Shown in pieces: positions 10,792-37,114 of a DNA stretch of 37,114 nt. The position numbers and the translations under genes are program-made. Position 1 is the first letter of the stretch. Each line of letters starts with the position of its first letter. The DNA lies in the IMG/VR virus record IMGVR_UViG_3300029084_000052, positions 1 to 37,114 of that record; one strand, 5' to 3'. The DNA comes from a virus. Lineage: Duplodnaviria > Heunggongvirae > Uroviricota > Caudoviricetes. The notes beneath the pieces are model-generated. The model was given only the letters and a program-made list of their open reading frames with translations, was not told where the DNA came from and did not search any database.

Positions 10792-11236
10792 AGGTGCTCC
10801 AGCTATTGGCGTTCCGTTCTTCTGGCCGTCCGCTGCAATGCCAAATACTGTAATCGACAGCTGGTCCAGTATGGTGTTTTTGAAGTTCAACGGCGCGAAA
10901 TTCTCTGCCACTGATTATCCTGTGCTGGCGAAAGTATTTCCTTCGCTGGTATTACCTGAAGCCCGCGGTGATTTCATTCGTATCTGGGATGACGGACGAG
11001 GTGCAGACGGTGGTCGCGAATTATTAAGCTGGCAGGCAGCTACAAACTTTTCTCAGTTTGCCGGGAATATAGGCGAAGGTGCGGGACACGCAATTAACTT
11101 TCATGATGGCATCGCCGGAAATCAGCCAGGATTTTCACGATTTAATTTCACCAGTAACTCTGTGGGTGATGGTGTGAATTTTGTTGCTGTCAGACCGCGC
11201 AATATTGCATTTAACTTTCTGGTGAGGGCTAAATAA
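10780..11236 (+). CDS. Alternative tail-fibre C-terminal segment, silent in this orientation and fused to the H constant region only after inversion
   Basis: Reading frame open across site A (..LGLGEGAPAIGVPFFWPSAAMP..) with no start or promoter of its own; its stop overlaps the next ATG (TAATG). Confidence 0.55.
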
Positions 11237-11829
11237 TGAAACCTGTTTTTGATAAAAATGGGCTGGCTACAGTGCCGGGCGATATGCGTTGTTTTTATTA
11301 TGATGCTGAAACATCTGAGTATACGGGCTGGTCTGATGAATATATTAATACTGGCGTAAGTATGCCCGCCTGTTCCACTGGTATTGACCCTGGCGAAAAC
11401 ATTCCGGGAAGAGTGGCAGTATTTACAGGTAAGGGATGGAGCCATGAAGAAGACCATCGCAATGAGACTGTTTACTCAATCGAAAATGGTGCTGCTGTTA
11501 CAGTGGATTATATCGGTGCCATCAAAAACGGTTATGTCACGCTTTCACCGTTAACGCCATATGATAAATGGGATGGTGAGAAATGGGTGACAGATACTGA
11601 GGCACAACACGGTGCCGCAGTAGACGCGGCAGAAGCACAGCGCCAGTCACTGATTGATGCTGCAATGGCTTCCATCAGTCTGATTCAGCTGAAATTACGG
11701 GCCGGACGGAAGCTAATGCAGGCAGAAACCACCCGACTTAACATTGTGCTGGATTACATTGACGCGGTGACGGCAACAGATACCAGCACCGCGCCTGATG
11801 TCATCTGGCCTGAGCTGCCGGAGGCGTAG
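11236..11829 (+). CDS. Alternative tail fibre assembly protein (U'/G' analogue)
   Basis: 197-aa ORF coupled to the alternative fibre segment; its C-terminus DTSTAPDVIWPELPEA parallels the minus-strand assembly protein C-terminus DTSTAPDIEWPTPP. Confidence 0.65.
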   Translation: MKPVFDKNGLATVPGDMRCFYYDAETSEYTGWSDEYINTGVSMPACSTGIDPGENIPGRVAVFTGKGWSHEEDHRNETVYSIENGAAVTVDYIGAIKNGYVTLSPLTPYDKWDGEKWVTDTEAQHGAAVDAAEAQRQSLIDAAMASISLIQLKLRAGRKLMQAETTRLNIVLDYIDAVTATDTSTAPDVIWPELPEA

Positions 11830-12244
11830 GCCATTCAATATCGGGTGCTGTTGACGTATCAACACGCATCAGCAGCACACGGTATTTCTTCCATTGGGTG
11901 AGAGTTGAAGTTTCTTCATCAGTTGCGATACCAGCATCAACAGCATCCTGACGCCAGGATATTTCACTGTCAGCTTTTGCACGAAATGTGGCTTTCATGT
12001 TTTCTGCATCTGATATTTTCTGTTCTGGTGAAAGCGGCGGCTCATCAACCCATGCAAGGGTCCCTGAAACCATTCCCAGCATTTTTCCTGTTGGCTTATT
12101 TCCCCCATTAAATCTGACAGCATCCTCATCGCTGATTTCAATACCATCCTGCGGCCATGTCCCCTCCTTGATATAACTTTCATATAGCGCTGCGTTGTAG
12201 ATTGCATTTTCGGACGGGCTGTAAACACTTTTAACTTTATTCAT
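11801..12244 (-). CDS. G: Tail fibre assembly protein (gpG-like), active orientation
   Basis: 147-aa ORF directly downstream of H on the minus strand. Confidence 0.7.
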   Translation of the reverse strand: MNKVKSVYSPSENAIYNAALYESYIKEGTWPQDGIEISDEDAVRFNGGNKPTGKMLGMVSGTLAWVDEPPLSPEQKISDAENMKATFRAKADSEISWRQDAVDAGIATDEETSTLTQWKKYRVLLMRVDTSTAPDIEWPTPPAAQAR

Positions 12245-12248
12245 TCTG

Positions 12249-13688
12249 TTATCTCCCTTTCGCTATATAGCAAAGATTAAACCCACCGGCGCCTGACATA
12301 CGGGCTGTAAAACCCGTTCTTGAAGTACCAGTTGAGTTAACTCCATAAGCAGGCATGGTTGCTGGAGAAAGCAGAGACTCCTGGATATCTGCCATTGTCA
12401 GTGTAATTGATTCGACCCGCGCGGGGAAAGGTAGCGGGAAAACAACATTCGTCCCTGTCTGTCCAACGGGGAAACCGAAAATACCCCATTGTGTAATTAC
12501 CCCATCCGGCCCCTTACTCCATCCAGATTTAGGATTCGGCCAGTCTGCTGCTCCAGAGTGCCCCGTTGTAAAACTACTCATATCTGGTACTTGCCCGGTA
12601 TCCGTTCCGACGTTCCTCGTTGCCGCTTCTCCCAAACCAAGGTATGTGAGAAGACCAGCTACATCCTTTCCACTCAAATTGGTAAGCGTATTGTCCAGCG
12701 GTTGTTTACCTGCCAGCGCATTAAGCATTGTCGTGGCAAAGTTCGGATCATTCCCCAGTGCCGCCGCCAGTTCGTTCAGTGTATCCAGTGCAGCAGGTGC
12801 AGAACCCACCATTCCTGCAATCGCCGATTTCACAAAAGCCGTAGTGGCAATCTGTGTATTGTTGACCGACTGCGCCGCCGTGGGGGCTGTTGGCTTTCCG
12901 GTGAGTGCCGGACTCGACAACGGTGCTTTTAGTGCCAGCGCATTGTTAATGGTGGTACTGAAATTCGGATCATTGTTAATGGCTGCGGCTATTTCTTTCA
13001 GCGTGTCCAGCGTGGCTGGCGCACCATTAATAAGGGCCGTCAGTGCCGCCTGTACAAACGCAGTGGTCGCAACCTGCGTGGTATTATTTCCCGCCGCTGG
13101 CGTTGGCGCTTTGGGGGTTCCGGTAAATGTCGGGCTGGCTTTTGGCGCGTACTGTGAATGCGGGTCCGGTGCGGCAAGATGTTTTGCCATCTGATCATCC
13201 GCGTACACCTTCAGCTCCAGTGCCTTGTCATCCACATACTTGCGGGTTGCCAGCACTACAGCAGGGTCGATTTTCAGGGTGATATTGTCCGTGCTGCTGG
13301 TAATCAGCACCATGCGCACGGTCTGAGTGCGCCCGCTACCTTCAGCCAGTTGCGGCTTATAGCTTTCCGGGCAGTTGCCCACGGCAATCAACGCCCCAGA
13401 CTCATCAAACAAGCCCACTTCACGTATCCACCAACCGCCCTCGTTTTCAGGGATCACCTGTTCGGCAATAATCTGGCTGCTGTTCTGCGGGTCGATATAA
13501 AGCATATTCAGCGCAGCCCGGCGTTTCTCATTTACCAGTGCCGTCTGCTTTGCGTCCGGCGTTGGCAATACTCCACCGCCATCGCCCACCGCCATATGGG
13601 TAATTTTTAGCGGCACACCGAGCGCGGCGGCGCTGGCAAGTTTCGCCGCGCCAATATCCGTCAGCAGGGTATAAAATTTTGTGCTCAT
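12249..13688 (-). CDS. H: Tail fibre protein H, with constant N-terminal part outside and variable C-terminal part inside the invertible segment
   Basis: 479-aa ORF with Ala/Thr-rich repeats; crossover site B lies at about codon 346 (..LLTYLGLGE..). Confidence 0.8.
   Translation of the reverse strand: MSTKFYTLLTDIGAAKLASAAALGVPLKITHMAVGDGGGVLPTPDAKQTALVNEKRRAALNMLYIDPQNSSQIIAEQVIPENEGGWWIREVGLFDESGALIAVGNCPESYKPQLAEGSGRTQTVRMVLITSSTDNITLKIDPAVVLATRKYVDDKALELKVYADDQMAKHLAAPDPHSQYAPKASPTFTGTPKAPTPAAGNNTTQVATTAFVQAALTALINGAPATLDTLKEIAAAINNDPNFSTTINNALALKAPLSSPALTGKPTAPTAAQSVNNTQIATTAFVKSAIAGMVGSAPAALDTLNELAAALGNDPNFATTMLNALAGKQPLDNTLTNLSGKDVAGLLTYLGLGEAATRNVGTDTGQVPDMSSFTTGHSGAADWPNPKSGWSKGPDGVITQWGIFGFPVGQTGTNVVFPLPFPARVESITLTMADIQESLLSPATMPAYGVNSTGTSRTGFTARMSGAGGFNLCYIAKGR
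12627..12652. repeat. Invertase crossover site B (26 bp, core AA), inside gene H
   Basis: TTCTCCCAAACC AA GGTATGTGAGAA; half-sites match 10 of 12 as a dyad, and a 13-bp stretch is shared in inverted orientation with site A. Confidence 0.6.
12714..13136 (-). repeat. Internal tandem duplication of about 70 codons within tail-fibre gene H
   Basis: Two consecutive units read SPTFTGTPKAPT..TTAFVQAAL..LDTLKEIAAAINNDPNF.. and SPALTGKPTAPT..TTAFVKSAI..LDTLNELAAALGNDPNF.. Confidence 0.6.
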
Positions 13689-24968: not shown

Positions 24969-25586
24969 TTACCAGTTAAAAATTGATGAGCTGCGAATTG
25001 CAGGAACATCCGATGGATTTCGTTTGGCAGCTGGTTCCATCAACTTACGCTTGTTAAATGCCTGATCAATATAATACTCAGGATTTTTAATAAAGACAGA
25101 GTATTTTACCAATGCACAATATACGTCAGAGTCATTATAATGGGGAACTGTTTTTTCATAAACATGATTCTTTCTAACCAGATAAGGCAAATAATAATCA
25201 TATCCCCAACCTGGCGTTCTTAGACTTATAGAACATCCGCATGATGGATCTGCACATACTGCAGGAGTAAACACACTGTCGTAAATTTCATCTCTGATAA
25301 CACCAATTAGACCATTATAGTTTTCTCCCCAGAGTGATGCTTGAATTTCAGAGTTTATAAATGGACGATTTTTGGTTTCCGTTCCAATAAGAACGACAGT
25401 AACCGTTGAGTCTTTTAAAAAATCCTCACGAATAGTCCTCATTATTGTTTCATCAGTGTTAGTTGTACTAATGTCACCATCACTTACCGACTTATCAATA
25501 AACGATTCTCCTCCGAATAAATCAATAATCTCATCTTTGAGATCTTGTTCGTTAGCATGATGATAACTAAGAAACGTCTTATGCAT
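24969..25586 (-). CDS. TIR-like domain protein (ThsB/DUF1863-like), accessory gene
   Basis: Begins MHKTFLSYHHANEQD (TIR beta-A-like F-L-S-Y); a later VTVVLIGTETKNRPFINSEIQ stretch resembles the ThsB-type core with a candidate catalytic Glu; AT-rich coding sequence. Confidence 0.55.
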   Translation of the reverse strand: MHKTFLSYHHANEQDLKDEIIDLFGGESFIDKSVSDGDISTTNTDETIMRTIREDFLKDSTVTVVLIGTETKNRPFINSEIQASLWGENYNGLIGVIRDEIYDSVFTPAVCADPSCGCSISLRTPGWGYDYYLPYLVRKNHVYEKTVPHYNDSDVYCALVKYSVFIKNPEYYIDQAFNKRKLMEPAAKRNPSDVPAIRSSSIFNW

Positions 25587-26317
25587 TATTCACTCCATTT
25601 ATCAACATTTATATCAAACTCTTTGACTACCTTATCATTGAAGAAATCGTTTACTTCTTTAAAACCTTCCAATACTTGACTAAAATGATAATAATGCTTT
25701 TGTATAGTACTTATAGGGGTTAAATGATACGGCAGTGATATAAATTCGCCGTTAGGGTCTCTATCCTTTGTGGTCACTTTATCATTATCTGAAACATATT
25801 TATGCCATCTCCGATAATTATTTTGATGCTTTGTTAAAAAAGAGTTTAACGTTTTCAAAATTTCATTTGAAAGTAAATACAGTTTTTTATCTCTTTTTTT
25901 CTTCACATCTAGTAATTTCATTTCATCTCTAATGAATTTATAGCACTCATAATATGAGTTTAAAACTTCTTCAATTGAGTCATAATTCGGATCAAATTTA
26001 AATAATGTTCGCTTCGTATCCAGATAATTTTTTACGCTCTTTTTAAAAAGAAGATCAGACTTATTTAGTAAAATATTAATACCACCAAAACTAAGTTGCT
26101 CCAATCTCAATGAATATCTTTGATGAAATGCACCGACCAGCAAGATATAAGCAACTAAAAATAGTATTAATACTGATAGAAAAGCACGAATTATGCTTAC
26201 ATTTGACATGAAATTAACTATAAACCACCATTTTTCAAACGGTGAAAACGGAATGCACCCCATGATAATAAGTAGAAGAACAAAGATACAACCCCATAAA
26301 ACCCACAATCTGTACAT
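25586..26317 (-). CDS. Two-TM membrane protein with a roughly 170-aa Lys/Glu-rich C-terminal domain of unknown family; partner of the TIR-like gene
   Basis: Start at the ATG (MYRLWVLWGCIF..) after an AAAAGGA Shine-Dalgarno; two hydrophobic helices; stop overlaps the TIR-like start (TAATG). Confidence 0.5.
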   Translation of the reverse strand: MYRLWVLWGCIFVLLLIIMGCIPFSPFEKWWFIVNFMSNVSIIRAFLSVLILFLVAYILLVGAFHQRYSLRLEQLSFGGINILLNKSDLLFKKSVKNYLDTKRTLFKFDPNYDSIEEVLNSYYECYKFIRDEMKLLDVKKKRDKKLYLLSNEILKTLNSFLTKHQNNYRRWHKYVSDNDKVTTKDRDPNGEFISLPYHLTPISTIQKHYYHFSQVLEGFKEVNDFFNDKVVKEFDINVDKWSE

Positions 26318-26470
26318 AAGAAAGATCCTTTTTCTTTTTATAATACTGCAACTACACCTCAAGTCAAAACCCTCTTCTGATATTACCCTCTACTACAGTA
26401 ACCCATCACATGACCTCCGACTTATCAGAAGACTAGCCAAACTTTCTCAATCAAATCAGGTTGCGCGCGC

Positions 26471-26495
26471 TCGTATCCCCGCCACGCCTGCCCGC
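26471..26495 (-). other. cos-like sequence (candidate phage cohesive-end site)
   Basis: Minus strand reads GGCGTGGCGGGGA.., matching the first 13 nt of the P2/186 19-nt cohesive end as I recall it; lies in a short GC-rich island. Confidence 0.4.
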
Positions 26496-26605
26496 TTTAT
26501 GTAGTAGTTTTCATGCAGGTGCATGATCTACGCGAAAGCCCGCCAATTCTGGCGGGCCCTAGCAAAAACGATCCTCAAACGATCATGCGATCTCATGCAG
26601 CATAG

Positions 26606-27448
26606 TCATGCACGATCATTTGACTCAGCATCTGCTGCACGCTTGCTGCGCGAAGATGCACTTTTACTATCAATCTTTCGACAGTTCTTTCTATCCCTGG
26701 CTTCATTTTCTTTAAATTTGTTATATGTCTCAGTATCAAAAAACGAAATTGTTTCAACCTCATCTTTTGGTATGAGCACACGGAAATCTTCGATATTAAG
26801 CCGAGACATTCCACTTATCACACCACTATCAAGATAATGTTGGTGATAGTTAGTCGTGATACTAATCGTTAGATCATCTTTATCCCGATATCCGCTTAAC
26901 ATCGGGAGAAGTTCAAGGTGCTCTGAAAGCCCGTTTTCTAACGCCGGACAAGTAACAAGACCAACATAGATTTTGCGAGACGACAGAGTTGCTATGATCG
27001 GAAACTGTCTTGCGGACGCTTCCATGAGTAATGATTCGAAAGCGTTATTACCTACAGCTTTAGCTAAGGCATCCCAGCGACGATCTCCACGTGATGTGCG
27101 TAACTTATTTCCAAAACCTGAAATCGCAGCGAGGACAATTGAAATCATAACCCATGCTATCTGTTTGATTTCATTTATTCTTTGAAGTTTGTCTTTCGAT
27201 GAAGACAACATGCCATTAAAACTGTCAGGTGTTAGATTCAAGGCATTAGCCAGCCAACGAAACCCTCCGCTGACGTTCAAAATAAAGGTGAAAAAACCGC
27301 CAAGGAGAAAAAAAACGATACCCCAGGCAGCCACAAAAAAATAAGCGTCCCAGCCGTTGGAACGCTTATATCGGTATCTTGTTGAAAGTGATAGGTTTAC
27401 ATAAATAAAACCACTAACCAAAATCACTGCTAAAAGTAATGTTGCCAT
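26606..27448 (-). CDS. Three-TM membrane protein with a soluble C-terminal domain, unknown function; accessory gene
   Basis: 280-aa ORF with three N-terminal hydrophobic helices, AT-rich; coupled to the upstream 71-aa gene (TAATG). Confidence 0.5.
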   Translation of the reverse strand: MATLLLAVILVSGFIYVNLSLSTRYRYKRSNGWDAYFFVAAWGIVFFLLGGFFTFILNVSGGFRWLANALNLTPDSFNGMLSSSKDKLQRINEIKQIAWVMISIVLAAISGFGNKLRTSRGDRRWDALAKAVGNNAFESLLMEASARQFPIIATLSSRKIYVGLVTCPALENGLSEHLELLPMLSGYRDKDDLTISITTNYHQHYLDSGVISGMSRLNIEDFRVLIPKDEVETISFFDTETYNKFKENEARDRKNCRKIDSKSASSRSKRAADAESNDRA

Positions 27449-27663
27449 TATCTGGTTCTATTAGTTTTCTCTTTTACAGTGCTCGTTTTGATGCCTTCAA
27501 GCTTATCCATCTGTGCCTTGATGGCATCCATTGCTCTTTTGTTAGACAAGTCTACGGACACAAAACCATCTTTACTAAGATTGAGTTTGTCCTGGTTCTC
27601 TTTAAGAACCCTTGCCAGACGTTCAACTGGGTTACCCAGGCTAAATGCGGCGATGCTTGACAT
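27448..27663 (-). CDS. Small 71-aa hydrophilic protein, unknown function; first gene of a coupled pair
   Basis: ATG preceded by AAGGGGGAG; stop overlaps the start of the 280-aa membrane protein. Confidence 0.45.
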   Translation of the reverse strand: MSSIAAFSLGNPVERLARVLKENQDKLNLSKDGFVSVDLSNKRAMDAIKAQMDKLEGIKTSTVKEKTNRTR

Positions 27664-28519: not shown

Positions 28520-30934
28520 TTAATACAGGTTTCGCCACTTATCATCTTCCTGCAAACGCTGGTTCCGATAGAAGATACGCAGGCCTGCTCCTGACGGAAT
28601 ACTGCCGCCGCGAAGGAGTAAATCGACCTCTTTCTCGCTACCATCAAATCCTCTGGACTTCAGCTCATAGACGAGCTGCTGTCGCTGATGGTCTGTAATT
28701 CGCTGTTTGTAGTCTTTACGCCGTTTCGGTTTAACCAGGCGTAACCTTGCTGCCAGTTCCCGGCGCTCTTTTTTGCTCATACTGTGCAGGTAATCGTGCA
28801 ACTGCTTGTCATCCATGCGGGTAATGTCCGTTCTGGTGCCCCCATCAGCTGATTTATCTTTCTCCTGTTGGTTCAAATTTTCAGCAAGGGGACAGTTATT
28901 GCCACGAGTCCAAGGGGCGCAAGCGCCCTGGTCGGCTGCCGCCTCCTGAACGTCAACGGCTTTACGGACCATTTTCCACTTCACTGCATGAGTGCAGATC
29001 TTGCCCTCTGCAATGGGTGACCAGATGCCATAAATACGAATACCGTGATCGCCATAGGCGGTCGGCTCTTCGTTGATTTCATAAGCGGTTCTGATGAGGT
29101 GATATTTACGGGGAACCAGTACGCCGCCCTGCTTCATGATGTAGGTGGCAAAGCAACCAGCATCAGCTGCAGCCAGAATGGCATCAAGGCGCGGGTTATC
29201 CAGTACCGGCGCACCTGCTTTTTTGTCACCCTGTTGCCTTGCCGCCTGACCAGCCAGCAATCGCAGTTCACGGTAAGCCTGACGCCCCGGAATGCCAAAG
29301 AAGCGGAATTGCTGAACACGATGCAGAGACGCCCAGGCATTAACGTATTCAGCGTTATCACGCAGAGATTTACCCGTTTCCTTGCTGATCTCGCCAGCCA
29401 GACCACGCCCGTCAATGTTCTTACTGATGTATTTCGCGATGTAGCTTGTTGGTGTACCTTTGCGCGGGTTTATCAGCTCAGACTTAAAGCGTGGTCCTGT
29501 GTTATTACCCAGCTCCTCGCGGTCTTCACGAATGGCAAACTTACGCAACAAAGCAGTAATGGCGCGGCGATCTTTTTTGCGCATAAAACACAACAGGTGC
29601 CAGTGAACTGTACCGTCATGATGCGGCTCAGCCACCCGCACGCCATACCAGCGCAATCCGGCTTTGTACATCGCCTTACGAAATGCAGCAAACATGCCGA
29701 CCAGATAATCACTGCTTTGTCTTACCGTCGCATTTGTCCAAGTCGGGTTGGGCCTGCCGTTATTTAGCGTGGAATGGAAACGTGACGGACAGGTGATGGT
29801 GTAGAAAACGGCGCAGTCACCGCGCATTTCCGCGATAAGCTCCAGACCTTTAACACATGCCATCATCTCATTGCGGCGATGCGCCGGGTTGCTACTACTG
29901 GCGTTTACCACGTCCTCCATATCCAGCGTGTCGCCGTCTTCGTTCACCAGTTCATGAGAACGGAAAAACTCCAGCGACTTACGGCGCTGCTCACGTTTAT
30001 GCATCACGGCTTCATAGCTGACATAGGGAGATGCTTTTTTGCTGACCAGGCAAACAGCACGCAACTGCTCTTCCCGCCATTCGCAACGCATCTTCCATAA
30101 TTTCCGATACCACCAGTCGGCGCACAACATACGCGCCAGCGAACCCGGAATGAGTTCATAGGGTACGGGTTTACGGCGGTTTCTTTTCCGGCGGAGTTGC
30201 TCAAACGCAGGAGGGATGACATCCAGACGCAGGGTTTCCGCCGCCACCCTTTCCCATGTCTTGCGGATTTCTTCTGGCTTAACGTCATCGGTGGCATACA
30301 AATCACCACAAACTGCATCAAGGCACATGCTCATATGCGCGGCAACAAGGGTAGACAGGCGCTTCACCTGAGCCTGACTCATTTCAGGCAAGATCAGCAG
30401 GCCGTCCAGCCCTTCATGGCTTGCCATAAAACGAAAAGATGCAGATAGCTGGCTGTCGCGTACATGCTCCAGTCGTTCCAGACATGGTTTAATCGTCTCA
30501 CGCAAATAGCGGGAATAAGCCTTTGGCCTGCCCAGGCTGCTGAAGTATTCAATACGTTGCATCAGCGGCTTGCTGATATGGGAAGGCTGGGCGTTAACGT
30601 CCGCCAGTATGACCATGTCCGGATTAAAACGCTGCTGCTCATGCACCAGCTTTGCCCGGCTAATGAGCTTATCCTGCTCCATTTCGCGCTGGACAGGATC
30701 ACGGGATTCATTAAAGAAATAACGCTCCCAGACCTGATCACTCAGTGCCTCGCGGCGCAGTTGTTCCTGCTTGTTATCGGCAGCGTACAGAGTGATCAGG
30801 TTTGAAAGCGCAGAAACCGGCGCAACTTCCGCCGGGTCCAGATAAGGGTTAATCGCCTTTTTCGGGCTGTTCCATGAGAATGCTGCGGCGGCCTCGTTAA
30901 AGCCGCTGCAGTTGTTCATATCAGCATGGCTCAT
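28520..30934 (-). CDS. A: Replication initiation protein A (rolling-circle nicking endonuclease, P2 gpA family)
   Basis: 804-aa ORF of P2 gpA size (about 761 aa) at the P2 A position; its start overlaps the Dam stop. Confidence 0.8.
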
Positions 30935-31788
30935 GCACGCACTCCGTACACGGCAGAACTATCCACGCCACGCGAAGGATCAAATCCCACCCAGCAGCGC
31001 GCCCCAGAAACAGCGATGATTTCTGTTGCAGATTTACTCTCACCAGCTGCTACGCCGATGCTGCGTTTTGCCTTGATGTAGTGGTGAGTAAAATTGCGAT
31101 ACAGCGAACGGATCAGGGATGTGTCACTGTTAGAAACAATGACCGGATGTCCTTCTGATGACCGATGTTCAAGAACGGATGCCAGGTGATACTGGTCATC
31201 TTCAGTGAAACCATCAGTGTGATAGCTGGAAAACGTACCGTCATACGGCGGATCGCAATACACCACATCCCCCGCCTTCAACATCGCCAGCGTTTCATCA
31301 AAGCTGGCGCAGATAAACGTTGCTCGTTGGGCTTTCTCTGCAAATGCGCGAATTTCTTTTTCAGGGAAATACGGATTTTTATAATTACCGTAGGGAATGT
31401 TGAAATGCCCGCTCTTGTTATAGCGACATAACCCACGGTAACCGTGACGATTGAGATACAGGAAATATACCGCTTTCATGAAATCAGTAATTTCAGTTGA
31501 GTAATTAAACTCCTGCCTTATGTTGTAATAAGCCACCTCCCTGTTTGCTTCCTTAAATAAAACTCTGGCGCGAGATATAAACGATTCACAATCAGCGGCA
31601 ACCTTTTTATAGAGGTTGATTAAATCAGGATTAATATCCGCAACCAGATAGCTGGGATAATCCGTCTCCATCATCACAGCACAGGAACCCGCGAAAGGTT
31701 CAACCAGTCGCGGGCCAGCTGGAAGATGTTTTTTCAGTTCGGGCATTACGGCGGTTTTATTTCCCGCCCATTTCAGGATGGTGCTCAT
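30931..31788 (-). CDS. DNA adenine methyltransferase (Dam/D12 class N6-adenine MTase)
   Basis: FAGSCAV (motif I) and DPPY (motif IV); ATG at the [11 protein letters not shown] position overlaps the upstream gene stop. Confidence 0.8.
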
Positions 31789-32012
31789 ACAGCACCTCCG
31801 TTGTAATGTTTGCCTTTCAGCTCTGCGATTTCCTGACAGGTAATGCAAAGCTGCACACCTGGAATGGCGCGGCGGCGTGCTGGCGGAATTGGCGCTTCAC
31901 ACTCAATGCAAAGCACGCGGGACACGCCCGGCGTTTTGGCACGGGCAGCATGGATATGGCGCTGGCGTTCTTCTTCAACGCGCTGCTGTACGAGATCCAT
32001 TGCATCAGCCAT
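31785..32012 (-). CDS. TraR/DksA-family C4 zinc-finger protein
   Basis: CIEC-x17-CITC motif in a 75-aa ORF. Confidence 0.7.
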   Translation of the reverse strand: MADAMDLVQQRVEEERQRHIHAARAKTPGVSRVLCIECEAPIPPARRRAIPGVQLCITCQEIAELKGKHYNGGAV

Positions 32013-33367: not shown

Positions 33368-33589
33368 CTAGTTGAATACAACATTGCAATCAGTAAGTGC
33401 ATCAACGGTAAGAGCAGCAAGGTTGATCATTACCTTTTCTCTTTTCTTGTCTTTCCGAAGGCGATGGCGAGGGATGCGACCATCAGCCAGCATATCGTTG
33501 ATGGTGTCGATAGAAAGACCAGTAAGTTCGCTATAACGCTCAATTGTGACATGTGGCGTATTCAGAGTTATTGAAATGTTAGGGGTCAT
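33368..33589 (-). CDS. apl: Apl-like excisionase/transcriptional regulator (Cox analogue)
   Basis: About 73-aa HTH protein ([27 protein letters not shown]), first gene of the leftward lytic operon, AGGAG Shine-Dalgarno. Confidence 0.65.
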
Positions 33590-33684
33590 GATGCAACATC
33601 TCCTATTGGCTTGTGGTGAGCCTGTAGTAATCGTGATAAGTACCCAAATGGGGACAAAATTGATACTAGGATCGCAAAAGAGAT

Positions 33685-34281
33685 ATGTCAACATCAAAGT
33701 ACCCAAATGAGATCAAAATAAATCCCAATAAAGGTGGTAAGGCTGCGATTGAGCGATTAGTCGAAGCTTATGGCTTTACGACACGACAGGCTTTAGCTGA
33801 TCACTTGGAAGTATCAAAAAGCACTCTGGCGAACAGGTATTTGCGGGATACGTTTCCTGCAGACTGGATAATCCAATGTGCTCTTGAAACAGGAACCTCA
33901 CTGAAATGGTTAACCACCGGGCAAGGCCTTAAGCAAAGCTCGCTGACAGCAGCTACAGAAGAGCTTGCCAAGTTTCGCCTTACCGCAGGCAAAATGATTG
34001 AAGATGGTTCATATGTCTTCGATTCATCATTTCTTCCTGCAAATCTTTCATCACCAATTGTTATTCAGGATGGGCTCGTCACATACATTTGTGATCAAAA
34101 ATTTTCTGAAGTACTTGATGGGCACTGGTTAATCAACATCGACGGAACCTATTCCATTCGAAAAATCACAAAGCTTCCAAAAGGTATGATTAAAATTACA
34201 AGTACAGAGAATAGCTTTGAATGTGCATTTTCTGATATTGAAGTAGTTGCTTGTATAAGAAGTACAATAATTTCAAATTAA
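33685..34281 (+). CDS. cI: CI-type immunity repressor, phage 186 type
   Basis: 198-aa ORF with N-terminal motifs (AYGF...QALADHL..S.STLANRY...CALETG.SL.WL.TG.G) resembling 186 CI from memory; divergent from apl. Confidence 0.7.
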   Translation: MSTSKYPNEIKINPNKGGKAAIERLVEAYGFTTRQALADHLEVSKSTLANRYLRDTFPADWIIQCALETGTSLKWLTTGQGLKQSSLTAATEELAKFRLTAGKMIEDGSYVFDSSFLPANLSSPIVIQDGLVTYICDQKFSEVLDGHWLINIDGTYSIRKITKLPKGMIKITSTENSFECAFSDIEVVACIRSTIISN

Positions 34282-34301
34282 TATAGTAAAAGGATTTAAA
34301 A

Positions 34302-35978
34302 ATGAATTCATTTTCCATCGTTATATTCTTATTAGCATTTCTCGCCCCCATTCTAGCTGTAATATTATTTAAGCAAAGCAAAAAACATAAAGCGGCTATA
34401 AATACCTTGACAGCTAACAACATAGCCCTTTCCAACCAACTGAAAGAAAATCAAGAAGAATTAGCACAGACTGTACGAGATCTATCAGAGCTTGAAGGAC
34501 GAGCTGCGCCATTATGGCAATACGTAGAATTGCACAGCGCAGTGATGGAAGCAGAGAATAAGATAAAAAATGCAGACTCAATAGCCAGGCAAAAAATAGA
34601 AGAAGCCCAAATAAAGGCTGCTAAGACAGTAAACGAAGCAAATTATCAAGCTCAGATAAAAATAAGCAACGCTAATAGCGAAGCTATAGCAATTACTAAA
34701 GACGCTCGCGATGCACGCCTGAAAGCTAAAGAACGTCTTGATAATGCCAATAGTAAAGCAAATGAGCTGATCTCAAATGCTAATGACAATGCAGTGAAAA
34801 TTATTTCCGATGCAGAAGAAAGAGCAAAAGAGATTGCTGGTTCAGCATATGAAGCTAAAGAGTTTGCAGAAAAATATGAAGCAGTTGCCAAATCAATGAA
34901 AAATAAAATTGAAGGTTATGGTGATGAATGGATCATCCCTAACCGTAGCGTTCTCGATGAATTGGCAGAAAATTATGAGTTTACAGATGCAGGTAAGGAA
35001 TTACAAAAAGCCAGGGAGTTAACAAAATCATTAATAAAAACTAATAAAGCTGCTTCGTGTGATTATGTTGAACAAAACAGGCGTAATACTGCTATCAACT
35101 TTGTTTTAGATGCCTTCAATGGAAGAGTTGACAGTATTTTATCAAAAGTCAAACACAACAATTTTGGAAAACTTTCCCAAGAGATAAAAGATGCGTTTCA
35201 ACTTGTAAATTACAATGGTTCTGCCTTTAGGTCCGCAAAAATAAGTGACATCTATCTTCAAGCTCGACTCAACGAGCTAAAATGGGGAGTTGCAGTTAAT
35301 GAAATTATGCTCGAAGAAAAAGAAGAGCAAAGAAGGATTAAAGAACAACTTCGTGAAGAGGAAAGAGCTCGTAGGGAGTATGAAAAAGCGATAAAAGAAG
35401 CTGAAAAAGAAGAGAAAGCTATTCAGCAAGCTATAAATAAAGCAACAAAAGAGCTTATGCTTGCAAATGAAGAACAACGCTTAGCTTTAGAGCAAAAAAT
35501 AGCTGAACTACAGTTAAAATATGAAGAAGCTGAAGCTAAAAACCAACGAGCTATTTCTATGGCTCAACAAACTAGATCAGGCCACGTTTATATAATTAGT
35601 AATATTGGCTCATTTGGCGAAGATGTATATAAAATTGGAATGACACGCCGCCTTGAACCACTTGATCGTGTTCGTGAACTCGGTGATGCTAGTGTTCCTT
35701 TTTCGTTCGATGTTCATGCGATGATTTATAGTGATGATGCACCATCATTAGAAAATCATCTGCATAAAGTCTTCAACGAAAAACAGGTCAATAAAATTAA
35801 CTCACGAAAAGAGTTTTTCAACGTAAATATTAAAGAAATTAAGTCTGTTATTGAAGATATGAACATCAACGCACAATGGACAATGTTTGCGGAAGCGAAA
35901 GAATATAGAGAGTCACTGGCGATTGAGCAAGAGCGCAAAGCAGCAACTTCCGCCAACGATGAACTGCATGTTGCTTAG
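34302..35978 (+). CDS. Membrane-anchored coiled-coil protein with a C-terminal T5orf172/GIY-YIG-like domain (DUF4041-like architecture); accessory gene
   Basis: N-terminal TM helix, long Ala/Lys/Glu-rich repeats, C-terminal GHVYIISNIGSFGEDVYKIGMTRRLEPLDRVRELGDASVPFSFDVHAMIYS; AT-rich; AAAAGGA Shine-Dalgarno 20 nt after the cI stop. Confidence 0.6.
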   Translation: MNSFSIVIFLLAFLAPILAVILFKQSKKHKAAINTLTANNIALSNQLKENQEELAQTVRDLSELEGRAAPLWQYVELHSAVMEAENKIKNADSIARQKIEEAQIKAAKTVNEANYQAQIKISNANSEAIAITKDARDARLKAKERLDNANSKANELISNANDNAVKIISDAEERAKEIAGSAYEAKEFAEKYEAVAKSMKNKIEGYGDEWIIPNRSVLDELAENYEFTDAGKELQKARELTKSLIKTNKAASCDYVEQNRRNTAINFVLDAFNGRVDSILSKVKHNNFGKLSQEIKDAFQLVNYNGSAFRSAKISDIYLQARLNELKWGVAVNEIMLEEKEEQRRIKEQLREEERARREYEKAIKEAEKEEKAIQQAINKATKELMLANEEQRLALEQKIAELQLKYEEAEAKNQRAISMAQQTRSGHVYIISNIGSFGEDVYKIGMTRRLEPLDRVRELGDASVPFSFDVHAMIYSDDAPSLENHLHKVFNEKQVNKINSRKEFFNVNIKEIKSVIEDMNINAQWTMFAEAKEYRESLAIEQERKAATSANDELHVA

Positions 35979-36035
35979 CAATGTATGTTTCATAGTAATC
36001 ACACATTGATTACTGGTTGTATATACAGTTAAATT

Positions 36036-36061
36036 TAGCCCTCTGATATGAGGGCTTTTTT
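36036..36061 (+). terminator. Rho-independent terminator directly abutting the int start codon
   Basis: tagccctc tgatat gagggct followed by ttttt, with the int ATG immediately after. Confidence 0.65.
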
Positions 36062-37114
36062 ATGGCAGTACGAAAACTCACCACAGGAAAATGGCTTTGC
36101 GAATGTTACCCCGCCGGACGTAGTGGACGTCGTGTGCGTAAACAATTCGCCACCAAAGGCGAAGCTCTGGCTTTTGAGCGTCACACGATGGAAGAAACCG
36201 AAGCAAAGCCCTGGCTGGGTGAATCAGTGGATCGTCGAACACTGAAAGACGTGGTTGAACTATGGTTCAAACTACATGGTAAATCTCTGACAGCTGGCCA
36301 GCATGTCTATGACAAACTGCTGTTAATGGTTGACGCTCTGGGCAATCCCCTTGCAACCGATCTCACATCTAAAATGTTTGCCCACTATCGAGATAAACGC
36401 CTGACAGGAGAGATCTACTTCAGCGAGAAATGGAAGAAAGGAGCAAGCCCGGTCACCATTAACCTGGAGCAAAGCTATCTAAGTAGTGTTTTTAGCGAAC
36501 TATCCCGCCTGGGCGAATGGTCGTATCCGAACCCACTGGAGAACATGCGAAAATTCACCATCGCAGAAAAAGAGATGGCATGGCTTACCCATGAGCAGAT
36601 TGTTGAATTACTGGCTGATTGCAAACGTCAGGACCCAATTCTGGCACTGGTAGTTAAGATATGCTTAAGCACAGGCGCACGCTGGCGTGAAGCCGTAAAT
36701 CTTACCCGCTCACAGGTGACCAAATACCGAATTACCTTTGTAAGAACGAAGGGGAAGAAAAACAGAAGCATCCCTATCAGTAAAGAGCTTTACGAAGAGA
36801 TCATGGCGCTTGATGGGTTCAATTTCTTCACAGACTGCTATTTTCAATTTTTATCCGTGATGGAAAAAACGTCTATCGTGCTCCCTCGCGGTCAACTGAC
36901 ACACGTTCTGCGCCATACGTTTGCGGCGCACTTCATGATGTCGGGTGGAAACATCCTGGCCTTACAAAAAATTCTCGGACATCACGATATAAAAATGACG
37001 ATGCGTTACGCACATCTGGCACCGGATCATCTGGAAACGGCGCTCCGTTTCAATCCTCTGGCAACGCTGCCAAGTGGCGACAAAGTGGCGGCAGCGGTTG
37101 GCATTACCCCGTAA
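36062..37114 (+). CDS. int: Tyrosine integrase, P2 Int family
   Basis: 350 aa with LSTGARWREA and HVLRHTFAAHFMMSGGNILALQKILGH...MTMRYAHL motifs matching P2 Int from memory; the stop codon is the last three bases of the window. Confidence 0.85.
   Translation: MAVRKLTTGKWLCECYPAGRSGRRVRKQFATKGEALAFERHTMEETEAKPWLGESVDRRTLKDVVELWFKLHGKSLTAGQHVYDKLLLMVDALGNPLATDLTSKMFAHYRDKRLTGEIYFSEKWKKGASPVTINLEQSYLSSVFSELSRLGEWSYPNPLENMRKFTIAEKEMAWLTHEQIVELLADCKRQDPILALVVKICLSTGARWREAVNLTRSQVTKYRITFVRTKGKKNRSIPISKELYEEIMALDGFNFFTDCYFQFLSVMEKTSIVLPRGQLTHVLRHTFAAHFMMSGGNILALQKILGHHDIKMTMRYAHLAPDHLETALRFNPLATLPSGDKVAAAVGITP

What the first reader, a model, noticed from the sequence alone, without database searches (positions are those of the whole stretch)
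34302..35978. Membrane-anchored coiled-coil protein with T5orf172/GIY-YIG-like domain inserted between cI and int
In 186-type phages int follows cI directly in the lysogenic transcript. Here a 1.7 kb AT-rich gene sits between them, starting 20 nt after the cI stop, so it is probably expressed in lysogens. The product combines an N-terminal TM helix, a long coiled-coil and a C-terminal T5orf172-like domain, a DUF4041-like architecture. A lysogen-expressed candidate nuclease-like effector in this position fits a superinfection-exclusion or defence moron.
Basis: partly seen in the sequence, partly recalled or inferred. Interest (0 to 1): 0.7.

Follow-up and report, generated by a model that had tools for sequence, protein, structure and literature searches.

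The report
Prophage-borne SNIPE-family membrane nuclease defence gene

Summary
The ORF is real: 34302..35978 (+), 558 aa, 20 nt after the cI stop, 36.8% GC against 52% for the prophage. It has an N-terminal transmembrane helix, a roughly 180-residue helical stalk, a DUF4041 domain (which newer Pfam calls 'SNIPE'), a helical linker and a C-terminal T5orf172/MUG113 GIY-YIG domain.

It matches the PADLOC PD-Lambda-1 model at E=4.7e-120, and newer PGAP annotation calls identical genes 'SNIPE associated domain-containing protein'. PD-lambda-1/SNIPE has been characterised experimentally (Vassallo 2022; Saxton et al. 2025). It is an inner-membrane GIY-YIG nuclease that cleaves siphovirus DNA during injection.

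The window protein is about 50% identical to that protein over its C-terminal ~290 residues, and the catalytic Glu is conserved (E484 = E414). Its N-terminal ~260 residues cannot be aligned to the reference and its stalk is longer.

The gene is not a fixed part of the cI-int region. Phage 186 has nothing there. Sibling prophages with the identical integrase carry Old, a KAP NTPase, or only a 63-aa ORF in that slot. The gene is, however, strictly linked to one 198-aa cI allele, across E. coli, Klebsiella and Citrobacter.

This is a new member of a known kind, of low to moderate interest.

The parts
33663..33691 (-). pR-like sigma-70 promoter (TTGACA-17-TAGTAT) driving apl/cII leftwards. It marks the 186-type switch region. 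The lysogenic promoter (pL equivalent) for cI and the cargo should lie just upstream of cI on the + strand, but it was not found by the consensus scan.
   Evidence: 10 of 12 consensus positions matched. Geometry compared with the annotated phage 186 pR/pL region. A candidate pL, TTGAAA(33571-33576)-17-CAACAT, is inference only.
33685..34281 (+). cI repressor, 198 aa, 186-type. This allele is always found together with the 558-aa gene.
   Evidence: Pfam Phage_CI_repr E=8e-32 and Phage_CI_C E=4e-27. The full allele is in 165 of 5426 E. coli genomes, the same count as the full cargo gene. The same pairing occurs in Klebsiella and Citrobacter.
34282..34301 (+). 20-nt spacer between cI and the gene, with the ribosome-binding site AAGGA at 34290..34294. 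No terminator is predicted between cI and the gene.
   Evidence: The spacer length is 20 nt in every genus examined and its sequence is nearly the same.
34302..35978 (+). SNIPE/PD-lambda-1 family gene, 558 aa.
   Evidence: PADLOC PD-Lambda-1 E=4.7e-120 and E=2.1e-116. PHROG 1847 E=4e-132. PGAP names it 'DUF4041' or 'SNIPE associated domain-containing protein'.
34311..34370 (+). Codons 4-23: single N-terminal transmembrane helix. Only 3 residues lie outside, and K24/K27/K28/K30 lie on the inside.
   Evidence: KD hydropathy 2.99; helical in the AF2 model. 102 of 125 full-length family representatives have such a segment.
34371..34910 (+). Codons 24-203: long Ala/Glu/Lys/Asn-rich helical stalk with a repeat pattern of about 11 residues. 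This is the most variable part and cannot be aligned to the characterised SNIPE.
   Evidence: AF2 helix over residues 3-203. Self-similarity at offsets 11, 25, 36, 47 and 58. Only sub-threshold DivIVA and ATP-synt_B matches. Highest entropy within its clade. The hhalign alignment starts only at residue 262.
34950..35246 (+). Codons 217-315: globular alpha/beta domain. The Pfam DUF4041/'SNIPE' match (residues 267-322, nt 35100..35267) lies largely within it and runs 7 residues into the linker helix.
   Evidence: PF13250 is labelled SNIPE.
35247..35576 (+). Codons 316-425: Glu/Lys-rich helical linker between the DUF4041 domain and the nuclease.
   Evidence: AF2 helices H316-387 and H390-425. About 50% identical to the reference linker.
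35580..35891 (+). Codons 427-530: GIY-YIG (T5orf172/MUG113) nuclease domain. Motif residues are Y430, Y443/K444/G446, R449/R450/R456, E484 (codon 35751..35753, equivalent to the catalytic E414 of SNIPE) and N500.
36037..36061 (+). Terminator-like hairpin AGCCCTC-TGATAT-GAGGGCT followed by T6, ending 1 nt before the int ATG. It belongs to the conserved int leader, not to the cargo, and it probably closes the cI-cargo transcription unit.
   Evidence: DNA conserved with sibling prophages begins at about 35981-36003. The hairpin is kept, with a different loop, in Klebsiella and Citrobacter.
36062..37114 (+). Tyrosine integrase, 350 aa. It is the right-hand conserved anchor of the variable slot.
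   Evidence: Pfam Int_N and Phage_integrase. The identical protein is found next to different cargos.

Best explanation
The gene encodes a SNIPE (PD-lambda-1) family anti-phage nuclease carried as cargo of a P2/186-like prophage.

Shown here by sequence and structure prediction:
- a single N-terminal transmembrane helix with almost no periplasmic part;
- a long helical stalk;
- a DUF4041/SNIPE domain;
- a helical linker;
- a GIY-YIG nuclease domain with all motif residues, including the Glu that is essential in the characterised protein.

Inferred by homology to the characterised E. coli SNIPE: the protein sits in the inner membrane with its DUF4041 and nuclease domains in the cytoplasm. Anchoring there keeps it away from the chromosome. 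When a phage injects, the DUF4041 region engages the injection machinery (the tape measure protein) and the DNA, and the nuclease cuts the entering genome. The cell survives, so this is direct defence, not abortive infection.

Inferred from gene order: the gene is co-transcribed with cI from the lysogenic promoter and is therefore made in lysogens. The hairpin at 36037..36061 ends most of these transcripts before int.

The N-terminal ~260 residues are the family's variable 'adapter'. They differ completely from the studied protein, so the range of phages excluded is unknown.
For: - PADLOC PD-Lambda-1 models match at E=4.7e-120 and E=2.1e-116 over residues 114-550.
- Pfam DUF4041, T5orf172 and MUG113 all score above their gathering thresholds. 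PF13250 is now named SNIPE, and PGAP uses 'SNIPE associated domain-containing protein' for the same gene.
- A 500-aa E. coli protein (L001 6984..8486) carries all nine residues named in the SNIPE paper: E223, N250, L253, W257, E264, K305, I308, T319 and E414. It also has the published length, so I treat it as the characterised allele.
- The window protein is 49% identical to that protein over residues 265-555 (E=3e-76). Profile-profile probability is 100%, E=6.4e-78. E484 aligns with E414.
- GIY-YIG motif residues are invariant in 105 sequences.
- The transmembrane helix and positive-inside pattern are present.
- The mechanism of the reference protein is taken from bioRxiv 10.1101/2025.11.03.685801.
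- Defence by the family was shown independently in E. coli (PMC9519451) and in S. thermophilus (10.1101/2024.10.22.618286).
- The slot holds other defence genes in sibling prophages: Old at E=5.6e-234 and KAP/PDC-S20 at E=4e-82.
- Operon geometry fits co-transcription: same strand as cI, 20-nt gap, a ribosome-binding site, and no + strand terminator before 36037.
Against: - No experiment exists for this 558-aa clade.
- Its first ~261 residues do not align to the characterised clade even at profile level.
- Part of its DUF4041 globular domain is shorter than in the reference.
- Of the residues whose mutation changed specificity in SNIPE, several differ here: S292, Q320, K327, Q375 and N389.
- In S. 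thermophilus, two PD-Lambda-1 homologues 98.5% identical differed between no defence and strong defence, so activity and range cannot be read from homology.
- The lysogenic promoter was not detected by the consensus scan, and there are no expression data.
Confidence: 0.8

Rival explanations
1. It is an abortive-infection effector. The membrane-tethered nuclease is released or activated after infection and degrades host and phage DNA alike, so the infected cell dies.
For: Removing the transmembrane helix from reference SNIPE makes it a toxic nuclease that cuts chromosomal DNA. Many single-gene nuclease defences act abortively. The divergent N-terminal half could respond to a different trigger.
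Against: The characterised homologue gives direct defence with cell survival at high multiplicity of infection. The nuclease, linker and core DUF4041 are about 50% identical to it. No protease or release module was detected.
Confidence: 0.08
2. It serves the prophage's own life cycle or intra-family competition. For example, it might exclude superinfecting P2/186-like myoviruses or P4-like satellites, rather than giving general defence against siphoviruses. This could explain why it co-evolves with one immunity (cI) type.
For: The gene is strictly linked to the 198-aa cI allele across genera, with a conserved 20-nt spacer. Its N-terminal adapter is distinct. P2 hotspot systems can act against P2-like phages (Rousset 2022).
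Against: Reference SNIPE did not act on any BASEL myovirus or podovirus. Linkage to cI is also what simple physical proximity within the mosaic immunity module would produce: both are AT-rich, at 39.7% and 36.8% GC.
Confidence: 0.08
3. It is a selfish GIY-YIG homing-endonuclease-like cassette that spreads by cutting empty cI-int sites, with no benefit to the host.
For: The gene is an AT-rich GIY-YIG gene sitting between two conserved genes.
Against: It has a transmembrane anchor, a ~180-residue stalk and a DUF4041 domain, not the DNA-binding modules (NUMOD/IENR-type) of homing enzymes; none were found. The left border of the mosaic lies in the apl/cI operator region, so cI moves with the gene. 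The whole family is validated as defence.
Confidence: 0.03

Closest known systems
SNIPE / PD-lambda-1 of E. coli ECOR26 (RCP76574.1, 500 aa; Vassallo et al. 2022, PMC9519451; Saxton et al. 2025, bioRxiv 10.1101/2025.11.03.685801)
   Same: - Both are single-gene systems with the same domain order: N-terminal TM, helical stalk, DUF4041, helical linker, GIY-YIG nuclease.
- The two proteins are about 50% identical over the last ~290 residues, and the nuclease core is nearly identical (GHVYIISNIGSFGE.VYKIGMTRRL.P.DRV.ELGDASVPF.FDVHAMIYS.DAPSLE).
- The catalytic Glu is conserved (E484 = E414).
- L253, E264 and I308 are conserved as L323, E334 and I378.
- Both are carried by prophages.
   Different: - The window protein is 58 residues longer overall, with DUF4041 offset by +70.
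- Its N-terminal ~261 residues (TM, stalk, first part of the globular domain) cannot be aligned to the reference.
- The globular domain lacks the ~12-residue 'CTTQWTVEGSRAEGKK' stretch.
- Position W257, where the W257R change boosted defence against Bas14-18, is natively Lys (K327).
- E223, N250, K305 and T319 correspond to S, Q, Q and N here.
- The reference sits in a lambdoid prophage on its own strand. This gene sits in the lysogenic operon of a P2/186-like prophage.
- The target range of this gene is untested.
PD-Lambda-1 homologues of Streptococcus thermophilus (10.1101/2024.10.22.618286)
   Same: They belong to the same family as called by defence-finder models, and defence against siphoviruses was shown experimentally.
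   Different: They come from Gram-positive hosts and are chromosomal. I did not compare their sequences here. They show that the activity spectrum can change with 1.5% sequence difference.
Prophage defence hotspots
   Same: - The known examples are: the P2 tin/old and Z/fun loci; the cI-integrase hotspot of Vibrio K139-like P2-related phages (Rousset et al. 2022, PMC9122126); and the 'integrase-primase' minor hotspot of P2-like prophages (bioRxiv 10.64898/2026.02.27.708500).
- Like those, this is a small slot between conserved anchor genes with high cargo turnover.
- Behind the identical integrase, sibling prophages hold SNIPE, Old, KAP NTPase/PDC-S20, an unknown 329-aa protein, or only a 63-aa YdcA-like ORF.
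- The cI-int position matches the one described for K139-like phages and falls within the int-primase hotspot.
   Different: This is the enterobacterial 186-type lineage integrated beside rcdA/ybjJ. The cargo here is tied to a particular cI allele rather than swapping freely.
Membrane-located entry blockers: Zorya, Kiwa, HK97 gp15, P22 SieA, K139 Glo
   Same: They also act at the inner membrane at the time of genome injection, and several are prophage-encoded and expressed in lysogens (discussion of the SNIPE paper).
   Different: There is no sequence relationship. Those that block entry lack a nuclease, and Zorya and Kiwa are multi-gene systems.

Membership tests
SNIPE / PD-lambda-1 defence family | Significant match to the family's defence-finder profile as a single-gene system | tested here: met
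   PADLOC PDLC03976 at E=4.7e-120 (residues 114-550, profile positions 35-481 of 491) and PDLC03977 at E=2.1e-116. No partner gene fits in the 20-nt upstream gap or the 83-nt downstream gap.
SNIPE / PD-lambda-1 defence family | Central DUF4041 (Pfam PF13250, now named 'SNIPE') domain | tested here: met
   46.6 bits against a cut-off of 27, residues 267-322. It lies largely within a globular alpha/beta domain at residues 217-315 in the AF2 model.
SNIPE / PD-lambda-1 defence family | C-terminal GIY-YIG nuclease with the catalytic Glu (E414 in SNIPE; the E414A mutant is dead) | tested here: met
SNIPE / PD-lambda-1 defence family | N-terminal membrane targeting: a single-pass TM with N-terminus out and C-terminus in | tested here: met
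   Hydrophobic residues 4-23 (KD 2.99) are followed by KQSKKHK and are helical in AF2. The topology itself is a prediction only.
SNIPE / PD-lambda-1 defence family | Homology to the characterised protein along the whole length | tested here: inconclusive
   BLASTP and hhalign align only residues 262-555, and global identity is about 36%. The SNIPE paper reports that the N-terminal region is not conserved across the family, so this does not exclude membership.
SNIPE / PD-lambda-1 defence family | [quoted passage not shown] | not testable with these tools
   This needs plaque assays, labelled-DNA injection and proximity labelling.
Prophage defence hotspot (variable slot between conserved anchors) | Conserved flanking genes with different cargo, including known defence systems | tested here: met
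   The identical 350-aa integrase lies next to SNIPE558, Old589, YdcA+KAP443 or YdcA63 only. Old scores E=5.6e-234 and PDC-S20 E=4e-82. The slot is empty in phage 186. The gene is in 165 of 1135 genomes carrying this integrase family.
Free-standing GIY-YIG homing endonuclease | A GIY-YIG domain joined to a sequence-specific DNA-binding module, soluble, and inserted at its own target site | tested here: not met
   No NUMOD, IENR or HTH modules were found. Instead there is a transmembrane helix, a stalk and DUF4041. The gene moves together with cI.

The most novel reading that the evidence does not exclude
The 558-aa clade may be a functionally distinct SNIPE subtype. Its unrelated, ~70-residue-longer N-terminal adapter, and its altered DUF4041 interface (native Lys at the W257R position), could retarget the nuclease to a different injection route or class of phages than the lambda/ManYZ siphovirus route. 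That could include other P2/186-like phages. Its invariable pairing with one cI allele, across genera and with a conserved 20-nt junction, could then reflect a co-adapted module combining repressor immunity with injection-stage exclusion, rather than mere linkage.
Probability: 0.2. Interest if true: 0.5.

Novelty: new member of a known kind. Interest (0 to 1): 0.25.

Why it matters
The result gives a specific, testable function to a gene that many records still label 'DUF4041', 'chromosome segregation ATPase' or 'V-ATPase subunit H'. That gene is very common: the exact protein is found on at least 1000 contigs, and it is in 165 of 5426 complete E. coli genomes.

It also shows that the cI-int slot of enterobacterial 186-type prophages behaves as a defence hotspot, holding SNIPE, Old or a KAP NTPase. 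This extends what has been described for Vibrio K139-like phages and for P2-like prophages in general.

As a natural SNIPE variant with a completely different N-terminal adapter, the gene would be a useful comparison for working out what sets SNIPE's phage specificity. It does not reveal a new kind of system.

Tried and rejected
- PDB sequence search with the nuclease domain found nothing meaningful; the best hit was E=0.05 to a DARPin.
- NCBIfam gave only far-sub-threshold DivIVA_Wag31 and SMC coiled-coil matches.
- Pfam on the N-terminal 241 residues alone gave only sub-threshold DivIVA, ATP-synt_B and V-ATPase_G matches. The source names 'chromosome segregation ATPase' and 'V-ATPase subunit H' are therefore coiled-coil artefacts, and I rejected them.
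- The sigma-70 consensus scan found no + strand promoter upstream of cI or of the gene. A candidate pL placed by analogy with phage 186 is weak and I do not rely on it.
- The accession RCP76574.1 could not be displayed directly. The reference allele was identified instead by its length and the nine published residues.
- A homing-endonuclease reading and a partner-gene (two-component) reading were considered and rejected, because of the domain content and the tight gene spacing.
- I did not run a large anchored survey of the slot across genome contigs. Fifteen sibling loci and two papers already settle the hotspot question.

Full report
**Observation.** The window holds about 2.85 kb of host DNA (grxA-ybjM-ybjL) followed by a P2/186-like prophage running from ogr to int. 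At its right end, on the + strand, lie three genes:
- a 186-type cI (33685..34281; Phage_CI_repr + Phage_CI_C);
- a 558-codon ORF (34302..35978);
- a tyrosine integrase (36062..37114).

The ORF starts exactly 20 nt after the cI stop and is preceded by AAGGA at 34290..34294. Its GC content is 36.8% (GC3 27%), against 52.1% for the rest of the prophage; cI is also AT-rich at 39.7%. In phage 186 itself, cI and int abut with nothing between them.

**What the protein is.** Pfam gives DUF4041 (residues 267-322), T5orf172 (427-520) and MUG113 (443-520), all above their gathering scores. PADLOC gives PD-Lambda-1 at E=4.7e-120 and E=2.1e-116, and PHROGs gives an 'unknown function' family at E=4e-132. 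In RefSeq E. coli genomes the same gene is labelled 'DUF4041 domain-containing protein' or, in newer annotation, 'SNIPE associated domain-containing protein'. The precomputed Pfam table now calls PF13250 'SNIPE'.

PD-lambda-1 was found in a functional selection against lambda (Vassallo et al. 2022, PMC9519451; ECOR26 RCP76574.1, 1503 nt). It was renamed SNIPE by Saxton et al. (bioRxiv 10.1101/2025.11.03.685801). That work reports the following:
- The E414A mutation abolishes defence. Removing the TM makes the protein toxic.
- Phage DNA is cleaved during injection.
- The protein associates with ManYZ and with the tape measure protein.
- It acts on siphoviruses but not on the myoviruses or podoviruses of the BASEL set.
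- The N-terminal region is the least conserved part of the family and is proposed to be a specificity adapter.

**Direct comparison with the characterised protein.** A weaker class of DNA matches in 143 E. coli genomes led to a 500-aa protein in a lambdoid prophage (L001 6984..8486). It has the published length and all nine residues the paper names: E223, N250, L253, W257, E264, K305, I308, T319 and E414. I take it as the reference allele.
- The window protein is 49% identical to it over residues 265-555 versus 196-487 (E=3e-76).
- Profile-profile comparison of the two clades gives probability 100%, E=6.4e-78, over 262-545 versus 195-478 and nothing before that.
- E484 aligns with the catalytic E414.
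- Y430, K444, G446, R449, R450, R456, E484 and N500 are invariant in a 105-sequence alignment spanning both clades.
- Of the specificity-altering positions, L253, E264 and I308 are kept. E223, N250, W257, K305 and T319 are S292, Q320, K327, Q375 and N389 here.

**Structure.** The AlphaFold2 model (pLDDT 75.6) has five parts:
- one helix over residues 3-203, comprising the TM and the stalk;
- a globular alpha/beta domain at 217-315;
- helices over 316-425;
- a beta-alpha domain at 427-530;
- a terminal helix.

**Family size and variability.** An exhaustive phmmer search over 1.84 billion cluster representatives gives 3384 clusters at E<=1e-3 and 1413 at E<=1e-30. Of the 125 full-length top representatives, 102 have an N-terminal hydrophobic segment. 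The exact window protein occurs on at least 1000 contigs. Within its own 82-100% identity clade, variability is concentrated in residues 1-120 and in the C-terminal tail, while DUF4041, the linker and the nuclease are conserved. The SNIPE paper reports the same pattern for the family.

**Context: a variable slot, but a fixed partner.**
- In 5426 complete E. coli genomes, 1135 carry this integrase family and 165 carry the full gene.
- In the others, conserved DNA starts at window position ~35981-36003, just after the gene's stop codon.
- Sibling prophages at the same rcdA/ybjJ site hold different cargo between cI and int: an Old homologue (PADLOC E=5.6e-234), a KAP NTPase (PDC-S20, E=4e-82), an unknown 329-aa protein, or only a 63-aa YdcA-like ORF.
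- The identical 350-aa integrase protein is found next to each of these.
- The slot therefore behaves as a defence hotspot. This is already described for the cI-integrase interval of Vibrio K139-like P2-related phages (Rousset 2022, PMC9122126). It is also described as an 'integrase-primase' minor hotspot of P2-like prophages holding 8% of their systems (bioRxiv 10.64898/2026.02.27.708500).
- On the other hand, the full 198-aa cI allele occurs in the same number of genomes (165) as the full gene. Every listed hit covering the full cI-gene-int block carried both. The left mosaic border is at about 33636, in the apl/cI operator region.
- In Klebsiella and Citrobacter the 558-aa gene again follows a 198-aa cI with the same 20-nt spacer. 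Identities to the window are cI 85% and 80%, gene 83.5% and 84.8%, and int 90% and 93%.
- The gene is thus an old companion of one immunity type rather than a recent insertion.

**Expression.** The following is shown: same strand as cI, a 20-nt gap, a ribosome-binding site, and no predicted + strand terminator until the hairpin AGCCCTC-TGATAT-GAGGGCT-T6 at 36037..36061. That hairpin belongs to the conserved int leader and is retained, with a different loop, in other genera. The following is inferred: cI and the gene form the lysogenic maintenance transcript, and most of these transcripts stop before int. The pL-equivalent promoter was not found by the consensus scan. Reference SNIPE is made constitutively from its native promoter.

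**Mechanism and rivals.** The best-supported reading (confidence about 0.8) is a SNIPE-type, membrane-sequestered GIY-YIG nuclease that is made in lysogens and cuts incoming phage DNA at the injection site, giving direct defence. Less likely readings are:
- an abortive-infection variant (0.08);
- a function directed mainly at related P2/186-like phages or satellites (0.08);
- a selfish homing-endonuclease cassette (0.03; the domain content argues against it).

The phage range cannot be predicted. The adapter half is unrelated to the studied protein, and S. thermophilus homologues 98.5% identical differ between no defence and strong defence.

**Novelty and score.** Standard defence-annotation tools would label this gene automatically. 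Both the family's mechanism and the hotspot concept are published. What is new is modest: an uncharacterised, very common SNIPE subtype with a different and longer adapter, tied to one cI allele in the lysogenic operon of 186-type prophages. I rate it a new member of a known kind, interest 0.25.

Noticed in passing
window 24969..27663 (- strand): This is the classical P2 hotspot between the portal gene (ends 24928) and the DinI/replication side. It holds a ThsB-like TIR protein (24969..25586; Pfam ThsB_TIR E=1.5e-14), a 258-aa protein with two hydrophobic segments (25586..26362, 29% GC), a 280-aa membrane protein (26606..27448) and a 71-aa ORF. The three larger proteins were scanned; the two membrane proteins had no Pfam or PADLOC match, and the 71-aa ORF was not scanned. 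The whole cassette is in only 6 of 5426 complete E. coli genomes. It resembles the TIR-plus-transmembrane cassettes mentioned by Rousset 2022 and may be more novel than the assigned finding.
   Followed up: partly
window 36037..36061 (+): A terminator-like hairpin plus a T6 run ends 1 nt before the int start codon. It is conserved in sibling prophages whatever the cargo, and the loop sequence differs in Klebsiella and Citrobacter. It is absent from phage 186, where cI and int overlap. It probably attenuates int expression from the lysogenic transcript.
   Followed up: partly
L006 5799..6551; L007 5746..6974; L020 6910..7770: Sibling prophages have a second variable slot between int and the attachment site. 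It holds a DUF2971/PDC-S31 protein, a Panacea-domain protein plus an unknown 251-aa protein, or a pentapeptide-repeat protein in Klebsiella. The window ends at the int stop codon, so its own content there is not visible.
   Followed up: partly
L010 4293..5917: This is a deletion variant of the module: a truncated cI (110 aa) followed by a 426-aa SNIPE-type ORF that lacks the N-terminal part. A TM-less SNIPE is toxic in the reference system, so this allele may be inactive or unexpressed.
   Followed up: no
window 10793..12625: The region between the tail sheath gene and the tail fibre genes, which in strain L73 holds a recombinase-family (invertase-like) gene and tail-fibre-associated genes, does not align with the otherwise collinear prophage of strain L73. 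This is consistent with an exchanged or inverted host-range segment.
   Followed up: no
window 30931..31848 (-): A Dam-type DNA adenine methylase (MethyltransfD12) lies next to the replication endonuclease gene. It is common to this prophage group.
   Followed up: no
L001 6984..10393: The reference-type SNIPE allele sits in a lambdoid (DLP12-like) prophage between the nin region and ren. It is followed by an HD-domain protein on the same strand, which may be another cargo gene.
   Followed up: no
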